A stretch of DNA of 64,000 bases from an uncultured Bacteroidales bacterium (GCA_946626605.1 CAMOUL010000003.1:19696-83695), one strand, 5' to 3'; positions 1-10,903 are shown, counted from the stretch's first letter. Made by a program: numbers and translations. The notes: generated by a model not told the origin, from the sequence alone.

Positions 1-455
1 TTAGCTTCTGGGATGCCGTGGAACGCAAGCGTTATGGTGTACCGGTAGTAATCACTAATCCGCACGAAGTATGGGATAGTTTGCTCAATAAAGATCTTCC
101 GCAAGAGTTCTTGGCTAAACTACCCAACGACAACTGGCAATTTGTCCTATCTATGCAAGAAAACGAAATGTTTGTTTTAGGCATGGAAGATGATGAGTTC
201 AACGATGCTATCGAACGTCAAGACTATGCCACTTTGAATAAGCATTTATACAGAGTGCAAAAGGGTAGTTCTAAATTCTATTGTTTTCGCTATCACACCG
301 AAACTACTGTAGATGATAAATATGAAGGAGTAAAGAACGAACAATGGAGTTTCCAAATTGGGAAAGCATTCCGTGCAAGTAGTTTTGATGGCTTATTCCG
401 GGTATTCCCTCACAAAGTCAAAGTAGATTTGCTCGGTCATATTCATAAAGCATGA
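1..455 (+). CDS. cas9: Cas9, type II-C-like, C-terminal (PAM-interacting) end; the 5' part lies upstream of the window
   Basis: The frame is open from nt 3, so the track's GTG at 18 is internal. The tail WQFVLSMQENEMFVLG...LYRVQK...FRYHTE...KVKVDLLGHI resembles the last strands of II-C Cas9 (compare NmeCas9 FKFSLHPNDLVEV...KYQIDELGKEI, from memory). A 30-nt-spacer array and a tracrRNA anti-repeat lie within 2 kb downstream. Confidence 0.7.
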   Translation, partial: SFWDAVERKRYGVPVVITNPHEVWDSLLNKDLPQEFLAKLPNDNWQFVLSMQENEMFVLGMEDDEFNDAIERQDYATLNKHLYRVQKGSSKFYCFRYHTETTVDDKYEGVKNEQWSFQIGKAFRASSFDGLFRVFPHKVKVDLLGHIHKA

Positions 456-1537
456 TAAACGAACAGCAGCATTCTATGTCAGTTGACCCGAATGACATTC
501 GGGAAAATCAACATAGAGAAAAAGAAATAGATTCTCAGTGGAAATGGCAGGAACCGGGATCTGCGTGGAAAGGAGTCGGTATCTACCATATTACACTGAC
601 GGTGACTTCTCGTCAATCTTTGTTGGGCACACTCGTTATCCCCAATAACGATCCTATGCAAGCGTGGGTAAATCGTACTGATTTAGGAGAGGCAGTTGTT
701 GACTGTTTGTGGACCGTACCGAAGCATCACGCAGAAGTGCGTATCATCAGTTTTGACTTGATGCCAAATCATCTGCATACTATATGGCATGTGACACGAC
801 CGATGTCAATCGGCATCAAATCTGTTGTGCGTGGATTTTGGCAGGCTGTTAAACGGATAGGGCGCGAATACTCTATGTCTGTTTCTCCGAATTCCACGAC
901 CACCACTCCGCCATCTATGTCTATTGTTCCGAATGATATTCGGACTGATAACCATATACCTGACCCTATTTTCACGAAGATGCCATTTATCCGTCCATTG
1001 TCTCGCAAAGAACAATTGGATGCGATGATTCATTATACTTGGCTCAATCCGCAACGCCTTGCCACTATGCACCTTATGCCCGGTTTCTTTCGTGTACAAG
1101 AGAATATTGAAATTGCCGGACGGAAATATTACGCTGTGGGAAATGTGGAACTATTACAAAGATCACAATATACGCCGGTACACGTTCGGAGTACAATGGT
1201 TCAAGAAGCAGAGCATGGCGATAACACGCGCCTCCGTAACTATATGAACAGCTGTGTGCTGGCAGCGAGAAAAGGAACGGTAATGGTTTCGCCATTTATC
1301 AGCAAACAGGAACAATCTGTCATGGAAGAGCTGCTAAAAGAAAAACTGCCGTTCATCTATATCGCCGATAACGGATTTCGAGATTATTATAAACCACCGG
1401 CTGCTTTATTCGATGCAGTCGCGGCAAAAAGGGTCTTGATTTTAAGCCCGTGGGAATATGATCCGAAAAAGAAATATGTGAGTCGTGCAGAATGTGTCGA
1501 AATGAATAAAATGGCAGAAGATATATCTGGATTATAA
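452..1537 (+). CDS. HUH/Y1 tyrosine transposase-family protein (IS200/IS605 TnpA / REP-associated RAYT-like) with an unassigned C-terminal domain of about 150 aa
   Basis: ATG 452 overlaps the cas9 stop (ATGA). It has the strand GIYHITLTVTSRQ, the HUH motif in DLMPNHLHTIWHV, and a Tyr helix DAMIHYTWLNPQRLA. An alternative in-frame ATG is at 476. The gene ends 30 nt before the first partial CRISPR repeat. Confidence 0.7.
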   Translation: MINEQQHSMSVDPNDIRENQHREKEIDSQWKWQEPGSAWKGVGIYHITLTVTSRQSLLGTLVIPNNDPMQAWVNRTDLGEAVVDCLWTVPKHHAEVRIISFDLMPNHLHTIWHVTRPMSIGIKSVVRGFWQAVKRIGREYSMSVSPNSTTTTPPSMSIVPNDIRTDNHIPDPIFTKMPFIRPLSRKEQLDAMIHYTWLNPQRLATMHLMPGFFRVQENIEIAGRKYYAVGNVELLQRSQYTPVHVRSTMVQEAEHGDNTRLRNYMNSCVLAARKGTVMVSPFISKQEQSVMEELLKEKLPFIYIADNGFRDYYKPPAALFDAVAAKRVLILSPWEYDPKKKYVSRAECVEMNKMAEDISGL

Positions 1538-1566
1538 AAGTATCTATTCCTGATAAGGATAACTAA

Positions 1567-2072
1567 TAATCGTACCCTTTAGGGTAAAGAAATACGGACT
1601 AAAACAAGGCTCGCAAATCTGTTCCTCGCATTCGTATGGTTGTGTATGTCATTCAAAAAAGTAAACCAGTAATCGTGCGAAGCTAAGAATACGGACTAAA
1701 ACAAGGCAGACGTTGGGCGTACGTATGCCGGTATAGTTGTGTATGTCATTCAAAAAAGTAAACCAGTAATCGTGCGAAGCTAAGAATACGGACTAAAACA
1801 AGAAGACGAACGCCGCCCTCGTACGTCTCCACGTTGTGTATGTCATTCAAAAAAGTAAACAATACGGACTAAAACAAGGGTTTTGTTGGAGTGTTGGAGT
1901 GTTGGAGTGTTGTGTATGTCATTCAAAAAAGTAAACCAGTAATCGTGCGAAGCTAAGAATACGGACTAAAACAAGGCAGACGTTGGGCGTACGTATGCCG
2001 GTATAGTTGTGTATGTCATTCAAAAAAGTAAACCAGTAATCGTGCGAAGCTAAGAATACGGACTAAAACAAG
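1567..2072 (+). CRISPR. CRISPR array with 5 repeats plus a 5'-truncated leader-side copy and five 30-nt spacers
   Basis: The partial copy is at 1567-1608. Repeats are at 1639-1705, 1736-1802, 1909-1975 and 2006-2072 (67 nt each) and 1833-1878 (46 nt). Spacers are at 1609-1638, 1706-1735, 1803-1832, 1879-1908 and 1976-2005. The consensus is GTTGTGTATGTCATTCAAAAAAGTAAAC[CAGTAATCGTGCGAAGCTAAG]AATACGGACTAAAACAAG. Orientation is set by complementarity to the plus-strand tracrRNA. Confidence 0.9.
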
Positions 2073-2125
2073 AGACTCCGTATAAAACGCTAAAACACAA
2101 CAAGTTAAGTAATGTTTTAGAACGT

Positions 2126-2158
2126 AAAAAAGCAGTACCGGGTGCTGCTTTTGTTTGT
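2126..2158 (+). terminator. Intrinsic terminator after the array, potentially bidirectional
   Basis: The hairpin GCAGTAC-CGG-GTGCTGC has a 7-bp stem with one G-T pair. It is flanked by an A6 run upstream and TTTTGTTTG downstream. Confidence 0.6.
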
Positions 2159-2218
2159 GTCCATTAAGTTGCAAAATTACAGAAAAATGCGGAAATGACA
2201 AAATTTTTTACAGATTTA

Positions 2219-2250
2219 TTTGCATATATCACGAAAAAGTAGTACTTTTG
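2219..2250 (+). promoter_or_regulatory. Bacteroidetes-type promoter for the tracrRNA
   Basis: TTTG is at 2219-2222 and TActTTTG at 2243-2250, with 20-nt spacing. Confidence 0.6.
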
Positions 2251-2253
2251 CAC

Positions 2254-2334
2254 AACTTTTTGAATGACATACACAATAAGGATTATTCCGATGTGTAAAC
2301 ATTTAGGGTGGGGCAGTGCCTCGCCCTTTTTTTG
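2254..2334 (+). ncRNA. tracrRNA
   Basis: ACTTTTTGAATGACATACACAA (2255-2276) is complementary to the 5' 23 nt of the repeat, with a one-nt bulge. It is followed by TAAGG (as in the Nme tracrRNA ...ACAAUAAGG), internal stems, and a terminal hairpin GGGCAG-TGC-CTcGCCC plus T7 ending near 2333. Confidence 0.75.
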
Positions 2335-2811: not shown

Positions 2812-3306
2812 ATGACTCAAATTAAATTTTATGCACCGGTTAAAGAAATGAACGGTGAATTCGAAAAAGGTAGCGGTATTGTCATGAGAAAAAAGAAATA
2901 TCGCGCACCGAATGGAGCCGTCCTCAGAGAAGGTGTTCAGGAATCGTACAAAATCGTTCATCCGCGTGATTACGATAAGAACCCGCCTAAAGGAGCTGAA
3001 CTCGCTAATATTCAGCTGTTTAGCGATTCCAAACGCCAGACTTCCGAGATTATCAATTCCGGCAAACTTACTGACGAGGAACTCGCAGCCATGACACCCG
3101 AGGAGCACCAAAAAACGCTTGAACTGCGCGCAGAACTGGAAAACTTCAGAAATCGTTTCTACGCGCAATTCAAACATCCGGATCCGGAAGCACCGTTCGA
3201 AAAGAAACTAAGACCAGGCGCATCGGTTCTCCGACAAAAACAATATGCTAAACTCGATAACTTCATTCAAGCGATCATTCGTGAGAGACTTCAAAAACAA
3301 CTATAA
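2812..3306 (+). CDS. Hypothetical basic protein (164 aa)
   Basis: This is a long ORF with no competing frame. I do not recognise a family. Confidence 0.55.
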   Translation: MTQIKFYAPVKEMNGEFEKGSGIVMRKKKYRAPNGAVLREGVQESYKIVHPRDYDKNPPKGAELANIQLFSDSKRQTSEIINSGKLTDEELAAMTPEEHQKTLELRAELENFRNRFYAQFKHPDPEAPFEKKLRPGASVLRQKQYAKLDNFIQAIIRERLQKQL

Positions 3307-9249: not shown

Positions 9250-10425
9250 TTATCCGAGCATCGTGAGCAACACACCTGCTGCGACAGCAGAACCGATCAC
9301 ACCGGCTACATTCGGGCCCATAGCATGCATGAGAAGAAAGTTAGACGGGTTCTCTTCCTGACCAACGGTCTGCGATACACGTGCAGCCATCGGCACAGCC
9401 GATACTCCGGCAGAACCAATCAGCGGGTTGATCTTCTCCTTGAGGAACAGGTTCATGAACTTAGCTAACAGTACACCTCCTGCGCTACCCAAACCGAAGG
9501 CCACAATTCCCATCGCGAGAATCATCAATGTCTGCCAGTTCAGGAAGCTTCCGGCAGTAGCCGTAGCACCGACAGAGAGGCCGAGGAAAATGACTACGAT
9601 GTTCATCAGTTCGTTCTGGGCTGTCTTGCTAAGACGATCCACTACTCCACACTCTTTCATCAAGTTTCCGAGCATCAGACAGCCGATCAGCGGTGCTGCA
9701 TCCGGAAGGATGAGGGCTACGATAGCCGTGATGATGATCGGGAAGACGATCTTCTCGGTCTTGGAAACCGGACGGAGCTGGCCCATCTTGATAGCGCGTT
9801 CCTTTTTAGTCGTGAGCGCGCGCATGATTGGCGGCTGGATAACCGGAACGAGAGCCATGTAACTATAGGCGGCGATAGCGATCGGTCCCAGGAGATGCGG
9901 CGCCAGTTTGGAAGTCAGGAAGATAGACGTCGGGCCATCTGCACCACCGATGATACCGATGGAACCGGCTTCTGCGGGAGTAAAGCCCATCGCGTAAGCG
10001 CAGAGGAAGGTAACGAAGATACCTATTTGCGCGGCAGCACCGAGAAGGAGAGACTTGGGATTGGCAATCAGCGGACCGAAATCCGTCATAGCACCTACTC
10101 CGATGAAGATCAAACACGGGTAAACGCCTGCCTTAACGCCTATATAGAGCACATCCAGCAGACCGGCGCCCTTGAGGATAGCCCCGTAAGAATGGTATGC
10201 CGGACTCGACGGGTCGAGGAAGGCGGTCCATAACTCATCATGGAACATGCCTGCGCCCGGGAGGTTGGTAAGCAACATACCGAACGCGATCGGGAGCAAC
10301 AAGAGCGGCTCGTATTTCTTATGAATGGCAAGGTACAGCAGGACGAACGACACCAGCAGCATGATACCCTGTTGCCACGTCATCTGCATGAATCCCATGC
10401 TTGTAAAAAATTCAAGTATTTCCAT
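9250..10425 (-). CDS. mmdB: Na+-translocating decarboxylase beta subunit (methylmalonyl-CoA/oxaloacetate decarboxylase)
   Basis: It is a polytopic membrane protein with the OadB-family look. It sits in an operon with carboxyltransferase, biotin-carrier and OadG-like genes. Confidence 0.85.
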
Positions 10426-10459
10426 TTGAATTTTTTATTTGTGATTTATAATTTATGAT

Positions 10460-10903
10460 TTATCCCAGCACGATCAGCAGGTCATCCTGCATCACGTTCT
10501 GACCCGGAGTAACAGCGATTTGCTTAACTGTACCATCGGCCTCTGCCATAATTGCGTTCTCCATCTTCATGGACTCAAGTGTCAGCAGGGTGTCACCTTT
10601 CTTGACAGCCTGGCCTTCACTTACCAGCACTTTGATAACAGATCCGGGCAGCGGACTCTTCACTTGAAGTCCGGCAGCAGGAGCAGCTGCTGATTTAGCC
10701 TCTGCCTTCGGTGCTGCAGGAGCTGCTGCAGGCTTCGGAGCAGGAGCAGCGGCCGGTTTGGCTGCTACAGGAGCCGCTTTCGGTGCCTCTGTCTCTACTT
10801 CGTATACTTTGCCGTTGACGGTTACTTTGGTCTTACCGGCTTCAATTTCTTCTACAGCGCATTTGTACTCAGCGCCGTTGATCTTAAATGCAAATTCTTT
10901 CAT
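10460..10903 (-). CDS. mmdC: Biotin carboxyl carrier subunit
   Basis: It has an Ala/Pro-rich linker and the biotinyl motif LESMKMEN. Confidence 0.85.
   Translation of the reverse strand: MKEFAFKINGAEYKCAVEEIEAGKTKVTVNGKVYEVETEAPKAAPVAAKPAAAPAPKPAAAPAAPKAEAKSAAAPAAGLQVKSPLPGSVIKVLVSEGQAVKKGDTLLTLESMKMENAIMAEADGTVKQIAVTPGQNVMQDDLLIVLG

What the first reader, a model, noticed from the sequence alone, without database searches (positions are those of the whole stretch)
1..2334. cas9 is translationally coupled to an HUH/Y1 tyrosine-transposase-family gene in the cas1-cas2 slot
Seen in the sequence: the cas9 stop (TGA 453-455) overlaps the ATG (452-454) of a 361-aa ORF. That ORF carries an HUH motif (MPNHLHTIW), a downstream catalytic-Tyr helix (IHYTWLNPQR), and a C-terminal domain of about 150 aa that I cannot assign. 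It ends 30 nt before the first CRISPR repeat copy. The array is followed by a terminator and a promoter-driven tracrRNA, so the interference parts look intact. No cas1- or cas2-like ORF lies between cas9 and the array, or anywhere in the other 62 kb.

Established knowledge: type II-C loci are normally cas9-cas1-cas2-array. Y1 HUH enzymes cut and rejoin single-stranded DNA next to small hairpins. The IscB ancestors of Cas9 live in IS200/IS605 elements, which are mobilised by Y1 TnpA.

Inference: there are three possibilities. (a) A CRISPR-associated HUH enzyme has taken over an adaptation or array-maintenance role. (b) A TnpA relic has been retained with cas9. (c) A RAYT/IS remnant replaced cas1-cas2 in a decaying locus. 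The ATGA coupling and the hairpin-bearing repeats (next finding) make (a) and (b) worth testing.
Basis: partly seen in the sequence, partly recalled or inferred. Interest (0 to 1): 0.85.

Follow-up and report, generated by a model that had tools for sequence, protein, structure and literature searches.

The report
RAYT-like HUH gene replacing cas1
A single-strand-DNA-cutting gene of a selfish or domesticated transposase-like family landed next to cas1 in a rumen bacterium's CRISPR-Cas9 locus, and cas1 and cas2 were later deleted, leaving a Cas9 system that can still cut but shows no sign of learning new targets; this is an interesting piece of genome history, not a new way of acquiring immunity.

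Summary
The cas9 stop overlaps (ATGA) the start of an intact 361-aa ORF, which is followed by a CRISPR array, a terminator and a tracrRNA. No cas1 or cas2 lies upstream of cas9 or elsewhere in the 64 kb.

The ORF is a two-domain protein. The N-terminal domain is a Y1 HUH nuclease of the RAYT-like class (HUH plus a Y---NP tyrosine helix). The previously unassigned C-terminal domain has a DprA-like Rossmann fold.

The protein belongs to a large, unannotated family in rumen Bacteroidales, with 2-3 old paralogues per genome. Only 4 of the 80 best genome loci are CRISPR-linked. Each gene carries its own hairpin units, including one in frame inside the gene.

Close Cas9 relatives (83-95% identical) have cas9-ATGA-cas1-array-cas2. 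Some loci have cas9-cas1-HUH-array. So the HUH gene is a secondary insertion between the cas1 stop and the terminal truncated repeat. In this lineage cas1 and cas2 were then deleted, and the old cas9/cas1 ATGA junction was reused. cas1 loss also recurs in loci without the HUH gene.

Arrays in cas1-less loci are static. The 21-nt repeat insert also occurs in HUH-less, cas1-positive arrays.

Reading (c) is closest. Readings (a) and (b) are not supported.

The parts
1..455 (+). 3' end of cas9 (last 150 codons; stop TGA at 453-455)
   Evidence: The ORF is listed. Contigs L001 and L002 carry the identical region with a 1153-aa gene that hits HNH and RuvC_III. It is 100% identical to that Cas9 by tblastn.
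452..1537 (+). 361-aa HUH-DprA fusion gene. Its ATG overlaps the cas9 stop (ATGA).
   Evidence: The family has 3008 homologues and 2363 representatives at 50% identity. Omega is about 0.08.
569..1096 (+). Y1 HUH nuclease domain (about residues 40-215). The HUH motif H107/H109 is at 770-778. The catalytic Tyr195 is at 1034-1036, within Y-x-x-x-N-P.
   Evidence: Invariant or nearly invariant columns are shown. Pfam Y1_Tnp is hit by 20 of 27 distant members. Foldseek matches 2XMA, 2VJV and 4ER8 at probability 1.0. The family profile hits ISDra2 TnpA at E 1.5e-3.
1097..1534 (+). DprA/Smf-like Rossmann-fold domain (about residues 216-361).
   Evidence: Foldseek matches H. pylori DprA 4LJR (E 1.4e-4) and ShosA 8ZVA (E 1.3e-6). 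There is a weak profile hit to DprA, E 0.22. pLDDT is 80-96 over this region.
473..517 (+). In-frame hairpin unit 'L' (TCTATG...CCCGAATGACATTCGGG...CATAGA), encoding the disordered N-terminal peptide SMSVDPNDIRENQHR
   Evidence: Pattern search. As ssDNA it folds at -10.5 kcal/mol, z = -5.1. pLDDT is below 50 for residues 1-29.
872..958 (+). In-frame hairpin unit 'M', lying between the HUH and Tyr motifs. A degenerate copy is at 872-913 and a second copy at 914-958, the result of a 42-nt duplication.
   Evidence: The copies are 399 nt apart in the relatives. A perfect stem of at least 6 bp is present in the linker of 82 of 85 distinct family genes, with 22 different stem sequences.
1541..1608 (+). 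Degenerate first CRISPR repeat directly after the ORF stop
   Evidence: It aligns with the first repeat that follows the cas1 stop in L094 and L109.
1639..2072 (+). CRISPR array of five repeats: 67, 67, 46, 67 and 67 nt. The 67-nt form is the 46-nt repeat plus the 21-nt insert CAGTAATCGTGCGAAGCTAAG. Spacers are 30 nt, and one spacer is present twice.
   Evidence: The duplicated spacer is a conversion relative to L003.
2128..2152 (+). Terminator-like hairpin after the array
2218..2334 (+). tracrRNA unit. A Bacteroidetes-type promoter-like element (TTTG...TAnnTTTG) is at 2218-2250. The anti-repeat is at 2257-2276. The terminator is at 2305-2327 plus a T-run.
   Evidence: The anti-repeat is 100% complementary to all five repeats. 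The promoter is read from the sequence and recognised from my own knowledge of Bacteroides promoters.

Best explanation
**What it is.** The 361-aa ORF belongs to a large, unannotated family of rumen Bacteroidales proteins. Each fuses a class-2 (RAYT-like, Y---NP) Y1 HUH single-strand DNA nuclease/ligase to a DprA-like ssDNA-binding Rossmann domain. Each gene comes with its own cognate hairpin units, located upstream, downstream and in frame between the HUH and Tyr motifs.

**History.**
1. One such gene unit inserted into a type II-C locus, exactly between the cas1 stop codon and the terminal truncated repeat. This state survives in L009 and L178.
2. In the window's lineage cas1 was then deleted from its ATGA start to the ATGA start of the HUH gene. 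The HUH gene thereby inherited the old cas9/cas1 overlapping junction.
3. cas2, which in this clade lies on the opposite strand beyond the array, was also lost.

**Mechanism (inferred).** The protein nicks and rejoins ssDNA at its own hairpins, with the DprA-like domain holding the ssDNA. It is expressed by read-through or translational coupling from cas9. It does not acquire spacers. What remains is an interference-only cas9-array-tracrRNA module whose array changes only by recombination or deletion.

**Shown:** the gene's identity and fold, the family distribution, the locus series, the junctions and the static arrays.

**Inferred:** the enzymatic activity, the order of events and the absence of any CRISPR role.
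For: **Identity of the protein**
- Conserved HUH and Y---NP motifs.
- Y1_Tnp Pfam hits in 20 of 27 distant members.
- Foldseek matches to IS608 and ISDra2 TnpA, RAYT 4ER8, DprA 4LJR and ShosA 8ZVA.

**Not CRISPR-specific**
- 315 loci in species-representative genomes. Only L006, L008 and L009 (plus L007) of the best 80 are cas9-linked.
- No conserved neighbour gene.
- 12 or more genomes have 2-3 copies, at 57-76% identity.

**Cognate hairpins**
- The CCGAAT-N-ATTCGG core occurs 135 times in or near family genes versus 12 times elsewhere in 2.2 Mb.
- 82 of 85 genes have a linker hairpin, with 22 stem variants.
- Upstream tandem units occur in many paralogues.
- There is precedent for in-frame REP insertions in subclass 2.4 TnpA_Y1 (PMC6006769).

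**Locus series**
- cas9-ATGA-cas1-truncated repeat-array-cas2(-) in Cas9 relatives at 66-95% identity.
- cas9-cas1-11 to 13 nt-HUH-array in L009 and L178.
- A cas1 internal-deletion remnant in L008.
- The ATGA-fused form in the window, L006, L098, L100, L170, L176 and L184-188.
- cas1 and cas2 are also lost without the HUH gene, through a cas9/repeat fusion, in L174 and L093.

**Static arrays**
- Window = L001 = L002. L003 differs by one spacer, where the window carries a second copy of an existing unit.
- L006 = L185, and L184 is collapsed to one repeat. L186 = L187 = L188.

**Repeat insert.** The 21-nt insert is present in the cas1-positive, HUH-less arrays of L094 and L109.
Against: - The HUH gene has stayed intact at this slot under strong purifying selection (omega 0.07-0.27) across loci with dS above 1. 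That is longer than expected for a mere passenger.
- All ATGA-type loci carry different spacer sets. L098 and L170 have HUH genes 95-99% identical at nucleotide level, yet share only the two proximal spacers. So spacer turnover after cas1 loss cannot be excluded.
- Recombination between loci is evident. The window's cas9 is closer to cas1-bearing loci than to other HUH loci. This blurs the order of events.
- Whole genomes were not available, so cas1-cas2 acting in trans, and the genome-wide copy number of the hairpins, are unknown.
- No enzymatic activity has been tested.
Confidence: 0.7

Rival explanations
1. **Independent accessory gene.** The HUH-DprA gene is kept at the locus because it is useful there for a reason unrelated to spacer acquisition. 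It could be a separate defence or ssDNA-processing function in a defence island, benefiting from the cas9 operon's expression.
For: - Purifying selection and a conserved position across many loci.
- Non-CRISPR paralogues sit next to an MmeI-type restriction-modification gene (L182) and a Fic/VbhA-type toxin gene (L081).
- The best structural match of the C-terminal domain is ShosA, of the Shosta anti-phage system.
Against: - No hit to any PADLOC defence model for five family members.
- No conserved partner gene across 80 loci.
- The neighbours are mostly housekeeping genes.
- The family's cognate hairpins point to a RAYT-like self-directed activity.
Confidence: 0.15
2. **Reader's option (a).** The HUH-DprA enzyme has taken over adaptation or array maintenance from Cas1-Cas2. 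It would capture ssDNA with the DprA-like domain and join it into the array by HUH chemistry.
For: - It occupies the cas1 slot with the same ATGA coupling in at least 6 distinct lineages.
- It is under selection.
- ATGA-type loci all have different spacers, and L098 and L170 differ beyond the first two.
Against: - It coexists with intact cas1 and cas2 in L009, and with cas1 in L178.
- Most family members have no CRISPR nearby.
- Arrays are identical across independent samples in three cas1-less lineages, and the only change seen is an internal conversion or a collapse.
- cas1 loss also occurs without the HUH gene.
- The repeat insert is not HUH-linked, and it is not predicted to fold.
- The spacer differences can be explained by recombination between loci.
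Confidence: 0.06
3. **Reader's option (b).** The gene is a relic of the IS200/IS605 TnpA that accompanied the IscB ancestor of Cas9.
For: Only the shared Y1 HUH fold.
Against: - The tyrosine motif is Y---NP (class 2, RAYT-like), not the Y---Q of IS200/IS605 TnpA (classification in PMC6006769).
- Cas9 relatives at 83-95% identity have cas1 in the slot.
- The cas9-cas1-HUH loci show a secondary insertion.
- The closest paralogues (69-73% identity) sit in non-CRISPR contexts.
Confidence: 0.01

Closest known systems
REP-associated tyrosine transposases (RAYT / TnpA_REP; class 2 of the TnpA_Y1 superfamily of Quentin et al. 2018, PMC6006769; E. coli TnpA_REP, PDB 4ER8)
   Same: - HUH motif plus a Y---NP tyrosine helix.
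- Low-identity paralogues within a genome rather than identical copies.
- Gene-specific cognate hairpins next to the gene.
[quoted passage not shown]

   Different: - It carries a roughly 150-aa DprA-like C-terminal domain. Neither DprA nor Rossmann is mentioned in that paper.
- There are 2-3 paralogues per genome instead of about one.
- Hairpin units are mostly direct or tandem and stay close to the gene. Only 12 of 147 core motifs lie away from a family gene in 2.2 Mb, so no high-copy dispersed REP population was seen.
- The window protein itself misses the NCBIfam REP_Tyr_transpos cutoff (18.5 versus 80 bits).
IS200/IS605 TnpA (IS608, ISDra2; PDB 2VJV, 2XMA)
   Same: - Same Y1 HUH fold (Foldseek probability 1.0; profile E 1.5e-3).
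- Hairpin-bearing units occur at both ends of the gene unit in some members (L178, L081, L040).
   Different: - Y---NP rather than Y---Q.
- More than twice as long.
- No tnpB partner.
- No near-identical intragenomic copies.
- Highly similar copies always share their flanks, so they are orthologues, not transpositions.
DprA/Smf and the DprA-like ShosA of the Shosta defence system (PDB 4LJR, 3UQZ, 8ZVA)
   Same: The C-terminal domain has the same Rossmann-like fold (Foldseek E 1.3e-6 to 1e-3).
   Different: - Sequence similarity is marginal (E 0.22).
- No PADLOC hit.
- The domain is fused to an HUH nuclease.
- No ShosT-like partner gene.
Type II-C CRISPR-Cas loci without an adaptation module (interference-only loci; spacer supply in trans as in PMC8092290)
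   Same: cas9, array and tracrRNA are intact and cas9 is under purifying selection, while cas1 and cas2 are absent.
   Different: The cas1 position is filled, codon for codon at the start, by an unrelated HUH-DprA gene. Relatives preserve the intermediate stages of the replacement.

Membership tests
Y1 HUH (TnpA_Y1) superfamily | HUH metal-binding motif | tested here: met
   H107-L-H109 is invariant in both the close and the distant alignments. It aligns to the ISDra2 TnpA HUH motif in the profile search.
Y1 HUH (TnpA_Y1) superfamily | Single catalytic tyrosine on a helix downstream of the HUH motif | tested here: met
   Y195 lies in predicted helix 186-208. It is invariant in the close set and at least 90% conserved in the distant set.
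Y1 HUH (TnpA_Y1) superfamily | Significant profile or fold match | tested here: met
   The window protein has no Pfam hit and only NCBIfam E 1.4e-3. But 20 of 27 distant members hit PF01797, and Foldseek probability is 1.0 to 2XMA, 2VJV and 4ER8.
Y1 HUH (TnpA_Y1) superfamily | ssDNA cleavage and joining activity | not testable with these tools
   Needs biochemistry.
RAYT / TnpA_REP (class 2) | Y---NP signature | tested here: met
   Y195-T-W-L-N199-P200, with N199 and P200 invariant. The signature is defined in PMC6006769.
RAYT / TnpA_REP (class 2) | Gene flanked by cognate REP hairpins | tested here: met
   Hairpin units lie upstream, inside and downstream of family genes, and stems co-vary between paralogues. 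In the window itself the units are only inside the ORF.
RAYT / TnpA_REP (class 2) | High-copy REPs dispersed through the genome | tested here: not met
   No copy occurs elsewhere in the 64-kb window. There are 12 core motifs away from family genes in 2.2 Mb of loci. Whole genomes were not examined.
RAYT / TnpA_REP (class 2) | About one copy per genome | tested here: not met
   At least 12 genomes have 2-3 paralogues among the best 80 loci.
IS200/IS605 insertion sequences | Y---Q tyrosine motif and a short (about 130-150 aa) TnpA | tested here: not met
   The motif is Y---NP and the protein is 361 aa.
IS200/IS605 insertion sequences | Near-identical multiple copies, showing recent transposition | tested here: not met
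   Intragenomic paralogues are 57-76% identical. High-identity pairs share their flanks.
Type II-C CRISPR-Cas | cas9 plus tracrRNA plus array | tested here: met
Type II-C CRISPR-Cas | cas1-cas2 adaptation module | tested here: not met
   No cas1 or cas2 in the window or in the 6.5 kb upstream of cas9. The rest of the genome was not seen.
CRISPR-associated (functionally linked) gene | Adjacency to CRISPR-cas in most family members across diverse lineages | tested here: not met
   4 of the 80 best genome loci are linked. Linkage is confined to one or two subclades at 69-100% identity.
DprA/Smf-like (SLOG) domain | Rossmann-like DprA fold | tested here: met
   Foldseek matches 4LJR, 5MLL, 3UQZ and 8ZVA. 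This rests on a predicted model with pLDDT 80-96 in this region.

The most novel reading that the evidence does not exclude
In this clade of rumen Bacteroidales type II-C loci, the HUH-DprA enzyme has been co-opted. It would capture ssDNA through the DprA-like domain and use HUH cleavage-joining to add or reshuffle spacer-repeat units, or otherwise maintain the array. This would explain three things: why the gene has stayed intact in the cas1 slot for dS above 1, why cas1 and cas2 became dispensable several times, and why ATGA-type loci carry unrelated spacer sets.
Probability: 0.05. Interest if true: 0.85.

Novelty: new variant of a known kind. Interest (0 to 1): 0.35.

Why it matters
- **For CRISPR biology.** The locus series is a clean natural record of how a type II-C system loses its adaptation module. 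The intermediates are cas9-cas1-array-cas2, then cas9-cas1-HUH-array, then cas9-HUH-array, with a parallel HUH-less cas9/repeat fusion. Cas9 stays under purifying selection throughout. The series also shows that a gene sitting in the cas1 slot with the cas1-type ATGA coupling need not be a cas gene. That is a caution for guilt-by-association screens.
- **For HUH and transposon biology.** It adds an unannotated, large family (more than 2000 clusters at 50% identity) that fuses a RAYT-like Y1 nuclease to a DprA-like ssDNA-binding domain. Its cognate hairpin lies in frame inside the gene in about 96% of members. This gives a tractable system for studying how such enzymes recognise their DNA.
- **If the unlikely co-option reading were true,** it would be a Cas1-independent route of array change.

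Tried and rejected
- **Repeat insert linked to the HUH enzyme: rejected.** The same 21-nt insert fills the first five repeats of the cas1-positive, cas2-positive, HUH-less arrays L094 and L109. It is not predicted to fold as ssDNA (0 kcal/mol). The GCGAAGC core is known, from my memory, as a stable mini-hairpin that nearest-neighbour models miss.
- **GGTAA/TTGGTAA target site upstream of the gene unit: rejected.** It was suggested by L008, L009, L178, L180 and L182. Only 22 of 82 upstream regions contain GGTAA, against my rough estimate of about 15 expected by chance (no expectation for GGTAA was computed), and it is not among the 25 most enriched 5-mers.
- **First codons of the ORF derived from cas1 (MIK versus MIN): only weakly supported.** The non-CRISPR paralogue L182 has a similar N-terminus. 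I keep only the ATGA microhomology.
- **Defence-gene or phage-gene assignment: no support.** There are no PADLOC hits, and only marginal PHROG transposase hits (E 0.04-0.055) in two of five members.
- **Mobile-element carriage: none seen.** No relatives in PLSDB plasmids, INPHARED phages or IMG/VR contigs. A first viral scan with the distant alignment failed for lack of conserved words.
- **Protospacers.** The three distinct complex spacers have no exact match in IMG/VR.
- **Rfam.** No tracrRNA or CRISPR family hit. The only hit was a sub-threshold L20_leader match over the tracrRNA.
- **Flank extension.** All-versus-all extension of flanks to find IS ends gave only orthologous synteny.
- **Literature.** Searches for an HUH-DprA fusion or a Y1 gene in the cas1 slot found nothing specific.


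Full report
**1. The observation**

The window begins inside a gene that ends with TGA at 453-455. A 361-aa ORF (452-1537) starts with an ATG overlapping that stop. Longer metagenome contigs carrying the identical ORF show the upstream gene to be a full-length cas9 of 1153 aa with HNH and RuvC_III hits. It is preceded by V-ATPase, acyltransferase and HAD-hydrolase genes, not by cas1 or cas2.

Downstream lie the following features.
- A degenerate repeat at 1541-1608.
- Five repeats starting at 1639, 1736, 1833, 1909 and 2006. Four are 67 nt and one is 46 nt, with 30-nt spacers.
- A terminator-like hairpin at 2128-2152.
- A promoter-like element, then a 20-nt anti-repeat (2257-2276) perfectly complementary to every repeat.
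- A second terminator at 2305-2327.

tblastn with Cas1 and Cas2 proteins taken from close relatives finds nothing in the 64 kb. The description is therefore correct.

**2. What the ORF encodes**

*Direct family scans are weak.*
- Pfam gives nothing, and NCBIfam REP_Tyr_transpos gives E 1.4e-3, far below its cutoff.
- The protein nevertheless has 3008 homologues at E <= 1e-3 and 2363 cluster representatives at 50% identity. Nearly all share the same length and two-part layout.

*The catalytic motifs are conserved.*
- H107, H109, N199 and P200 are invariant in both the close and the distant alignments.
- Y195 is invariant in the close set and at least 90% conserved in the distant set.
- 20 of 27 distant members hit Pfam Y1_Tnp.

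*The fold supports two domains.* An AlphaFold model built on 26 homologues has mean pLDDT 80; disordered segments are residues 1-29 and 145-169. In the PDB it matches two groups of structures.
- N-terminal domain: IS200/IS605 TnpA (ISDra2, IS608) and the E. coli REP-associated transposase 4ER8.
- C-terminal domain: DprA (4LJR, 5MLL, 3UQZ) and the DprA-like ShosA (8ZVA).

A family profile also hits ISDra2 TnpA (E 1.5e-3) and, weakly, DprA (E 0.22).

*Classification.* The Y---NP signature places the nuclease in class 2 (TnpA_REP-like) of the TnpA_Y1 classification of Quentin et al. 2018, not in the IS200 class (PMC6006769). Public records name family members only 'hypothetical protein'.

**3. 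The family has its own hairpins**

*In the window and its closest relatives.*
- A unit of about 45-50 nt occurs in frame at codons 8-22 (473-517). It consists of an outer stem TCTATG/CATAGA and an inner stem CCCGAATG/CATTCGGG. As ssDNA it folds at -10.5 kcal/mol, z = -5.1.
- It occurs again between the HUH and Tyr motifs, as a degenerate copy at 872 and a duplicated copy at 914-958.
- In the nearest relatives the two copies are 90-100% identical and exactly 399 nt apart.

*Across the family.*
- 82 of 85 distinct genes have a perfect stem of at least 6 bp in this linker, against 8 of 97 shuffled controls.
- There are 22 different stem sequences. The DNA pairing is kept while the encoded peptide changes.
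- Other paralogues have further copies just upstream (often in tandem, each followed by an ACAATAGAC-like tail) or at or after the stop codon.
- The CCGAAT-N-ATTCGG core occurs 135 times in or within 150 nt of family genes, and 12 times elsewhere, in 2.2 Mb. It occurs nowhere else in the window.

[quoted passage not shown] The feature therefore has a precedent, but here it is nearly universal in the family.

**4. The family is not CRISPR-specific**

- A scan of one genome per species found 315 loci, all in Bacteroidales MAGs wherever the record names a taxon and mostly from rumen or gut samples.
- Among the best 80, only L006, L008 and L009 have cas9 upstream. L007 begins at the gene but has the array and tracrRNA downstream.
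- No neighbour gene is shared by more than 9 loci.
- At least 12 genomes have 2-3 copies, at 57-76% identity.
- Pairs with high identity always share their flanks, so they are orthologues and not recent transpositions.
- Paralogues at 69-73% identity to the window protein sit next to RelA/RecR genes or an MmeI-type restriction-modification gene.
- In a sister strain (L081) whose flanks are 96-98% identical to the window, the very same site holds a different island. It carries a 59%-identical paralogue, two lipoprotein-like genes and a Fic gene.
- No relatives occur in plasmid, phage or viral-contig collections.

**5. How the gene came to sit in the cas1 slot**

I surveyed Cas9 relatives.

*Normal locus of this clade.* It is cas9, then cas1 overlapping the cas9 stop by ATGA, then a truncated repeat abutting the cas1 stop, then the array, then cas2 on the opposite strand, then the tracrRNA. 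This holds for Cas9 at 66-95% identity to the window's.

*Intermediate states.*
- L009 and L178/L179 have cas9-cas1, then 11-13 nt, then the HUH gene, then the truncated repeat and array. L009 also keeps cas2. L178 has hairpin units at both ends of the gene as well as inside it. This is the inserted state.
- L008 keeps only the first 15 or so and last 50 or so nt of cas1 in front of the HUH gene.

*The ATGA-fused state.* The window, L176/L177, L006/L184/L185 (cas2 retained), L098, L100, L170 and L186-188 have the HUH ATG exactly at the cas9 stop. Both cas1 and the HUH gene begin with ATGA. A deletion between these two tetranucleotides therefore gives precisely the observed junction.

*Loss without the HUH gene.* cas1 and cas2 are also lost in L174/L175 and L093. 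There the cas9 3' end is fused directly to a repeat through a short similarity.

Loss of the adaptation genes is thus recurrent in this clade and does not depend on the HUH gene. The ATGA coupling is the inherited cas9/cas1 junction.

**6. Is adaptation still going on?**

*Evidence for static arrays.*
- The window, L001 and L002 come from independent samples and have identical arrays.
- L003 has a fifth distinct spacer where the others carry a second copy of an existing spacer-repeat unit. This is a 165-nt internal conversion, not an acquisition.
- L006 and L185 have identical arrays, and L184 is the same locus collapsed to one repeat. L186, L187 and L188 are identical.
- As a control, the cas1-bearing loci L172 and L173 encode the same Cas9 protein yet share only two spacers.

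*The one observation pointing the other way.* L098 and L170 have HUH genes 95-99% identical at nucleotide level but share only the two proximal spacers.

*Why this is not decisive.*
- Their cas9 3' ends are only 60-97% identical, and the loci are mosaics.
- The window's cas9 differs from cas1-bearing L171 by dS 0.5, but from the HUH-bearing L186 by dS 2.6. Its HUH gene differs from other ATGA-type HUH genes by dS 1.3-1.6.
- Recombination between loci, using cas9 and the repeats as homology, can therefore move the cas1 or HUH 'cassette' between arrays.

**7. The repeat insert**

The 67-nt repeats are the normal 46-nt repeat with CAGTAATCGTGCGAAGCTAAG inserted after GTAAAC.
- The same insert occupies the first five units of the 22-repeat arrays of L094 and L109, which have cas1 and cas2 and no HUH gene.
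- It is not predicted to fold.

It is a repeat variant propagated in an ordinary array. It is unrelated to the HUH gene.

**8. Selection**

- The HUH gene has omega 0.07-0.09 between distant cas9-linked loci and 0.18-0.27 between close ones.
- cas9 has omega 0.05-0.2 among cas1-less loci.

Neither gene is decaying. The locus is an interference-only module plus a functional HUH-DprA gene.

**9. Verdict**

The arrangement is best explained as a secondary insertion of a RAYT-like HUH-DprA gene unit at the cas1/array boundary, followed by deletion of cas1 and cas2.

- The relic hypothesis is refuted.
- The family itself is worth noting. It is unannotated, it fuses a Y1 nuclease to a DprA-like domain, and it carries its cognate hairpin in frame inside the gene. 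I rate it a new variant of a known kind.
- The CRISPR aspect is of moderate interest, as a documented pathway of adaptation-module loss.

Noticed in passing
window 473-517 and 872-958; L006, L008 and L009 near 10016-10069 and 10415-10468: The HUH-DprA gene contains its own hairpin unit twice in frame (399 nt apart in relatives), encoding two disordered peptide segments. Across the family, 82 of 85 genes keep a perfect stem of at least 6 bp in the linker between the HUH and Tyr motifs, with 22 different stem sequences. So DNA or RNA pairing, not the peptide, is what is conserved.
   Followed up: yes
window 1639-2072; L094 6674-8372; L109 10457-12155: A 21-nt insert (CAGTAATCGTGCGAAGCTAAG) turns the 46-nt type II-C repeat into a 67-nt repeat. 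In L094 and L109 the five cas1-proximal units are long and the other sixteen are normal. So long and short repeats coexist in a working array, and the insert was copied along with the repeat.
   Followed up: partly
window 1706-1735 versus L003: The window, L001 and L002 carry the spacer GCAGACGTTGGGCGTACGTATGCCGGTATA twice (a 165-nt block at 1639-1803 equals 1909-2073). L003 has a different spacer at the first of these positions. This is an intra-array conversion.
   Followed up: yes
window 1879-1908: One spacer is low-complexity (GGTTTTGTTGGAGTGTTGGAGTGTTGGAGT, a 7-nt unit repeated), and it follows the only short repeat. Its origin is unknown.
   Followed up: no
L081 2792-7596 (sister strain; flanks 96-98% identical to the window and L001): At the same chromosomal site (between the HAD hydrolase and rubredoxin genes), a sister strain has no CRISPR locus. 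Instead it has a 4.8-kb island with two lipoprotein-like genes, a 59%-identical HUH-DprA paralogue and a Fic/VbhA-HTH gene. A solitary hairpin unit sits 77 nt inside the island's left border.
   Followed up: partly
L095 5220-5678; L096 (same position): A different 152-aa ORF with no Pfam match sits immediately after the cas1 stop in two cas1-bearing loci. This is the same boundary where the HUH gene inserted, so the boundary may be a preferred landing site.
   Followed up: partly
L174 9430-9520; L093 4570-4640: In HUH-less loci that lost cas1 and cas2, the cas9 3' end (GGTCATATTCAT) is fused directly to a repeat (TCATTCAAAAAAGTAA...). This changes the last residues of Cas9.
   Followed up: partly
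L086 5766-6128, L094 8530-8856, L006 11801-12160, L171 11721-12056: In this Cas9 clade cas2 lies beyond the array on the opposite strand (cas9-cas1-array-cas2(-)-tracr). This is an unusual gene order for type II-C.
   Followed up: no
window 2073-2160; also L098, L184 and L007 after the last repeat: A conserved post-array element (CTAAAACACAACAAGTTAA...TGTTTTAG, able to pair) precedes the terminator in all related loci. Its function is unknown.
   Followed up: no
window 2218-2250 and 2360-2392: Two 33-nt elements, 73% alike (ATTTGCATATATC...GTAC[TC]TTTG), precede the tracrRNA and the rubredoxin gene (2431-2565). They look like Bacteroidetes-type promoters.
   Followed up: no
window 2812-3306: A 164-aa ORF without any Pfam match is conserved next to the locus in L001, L003 and L008.
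   Followed up: no
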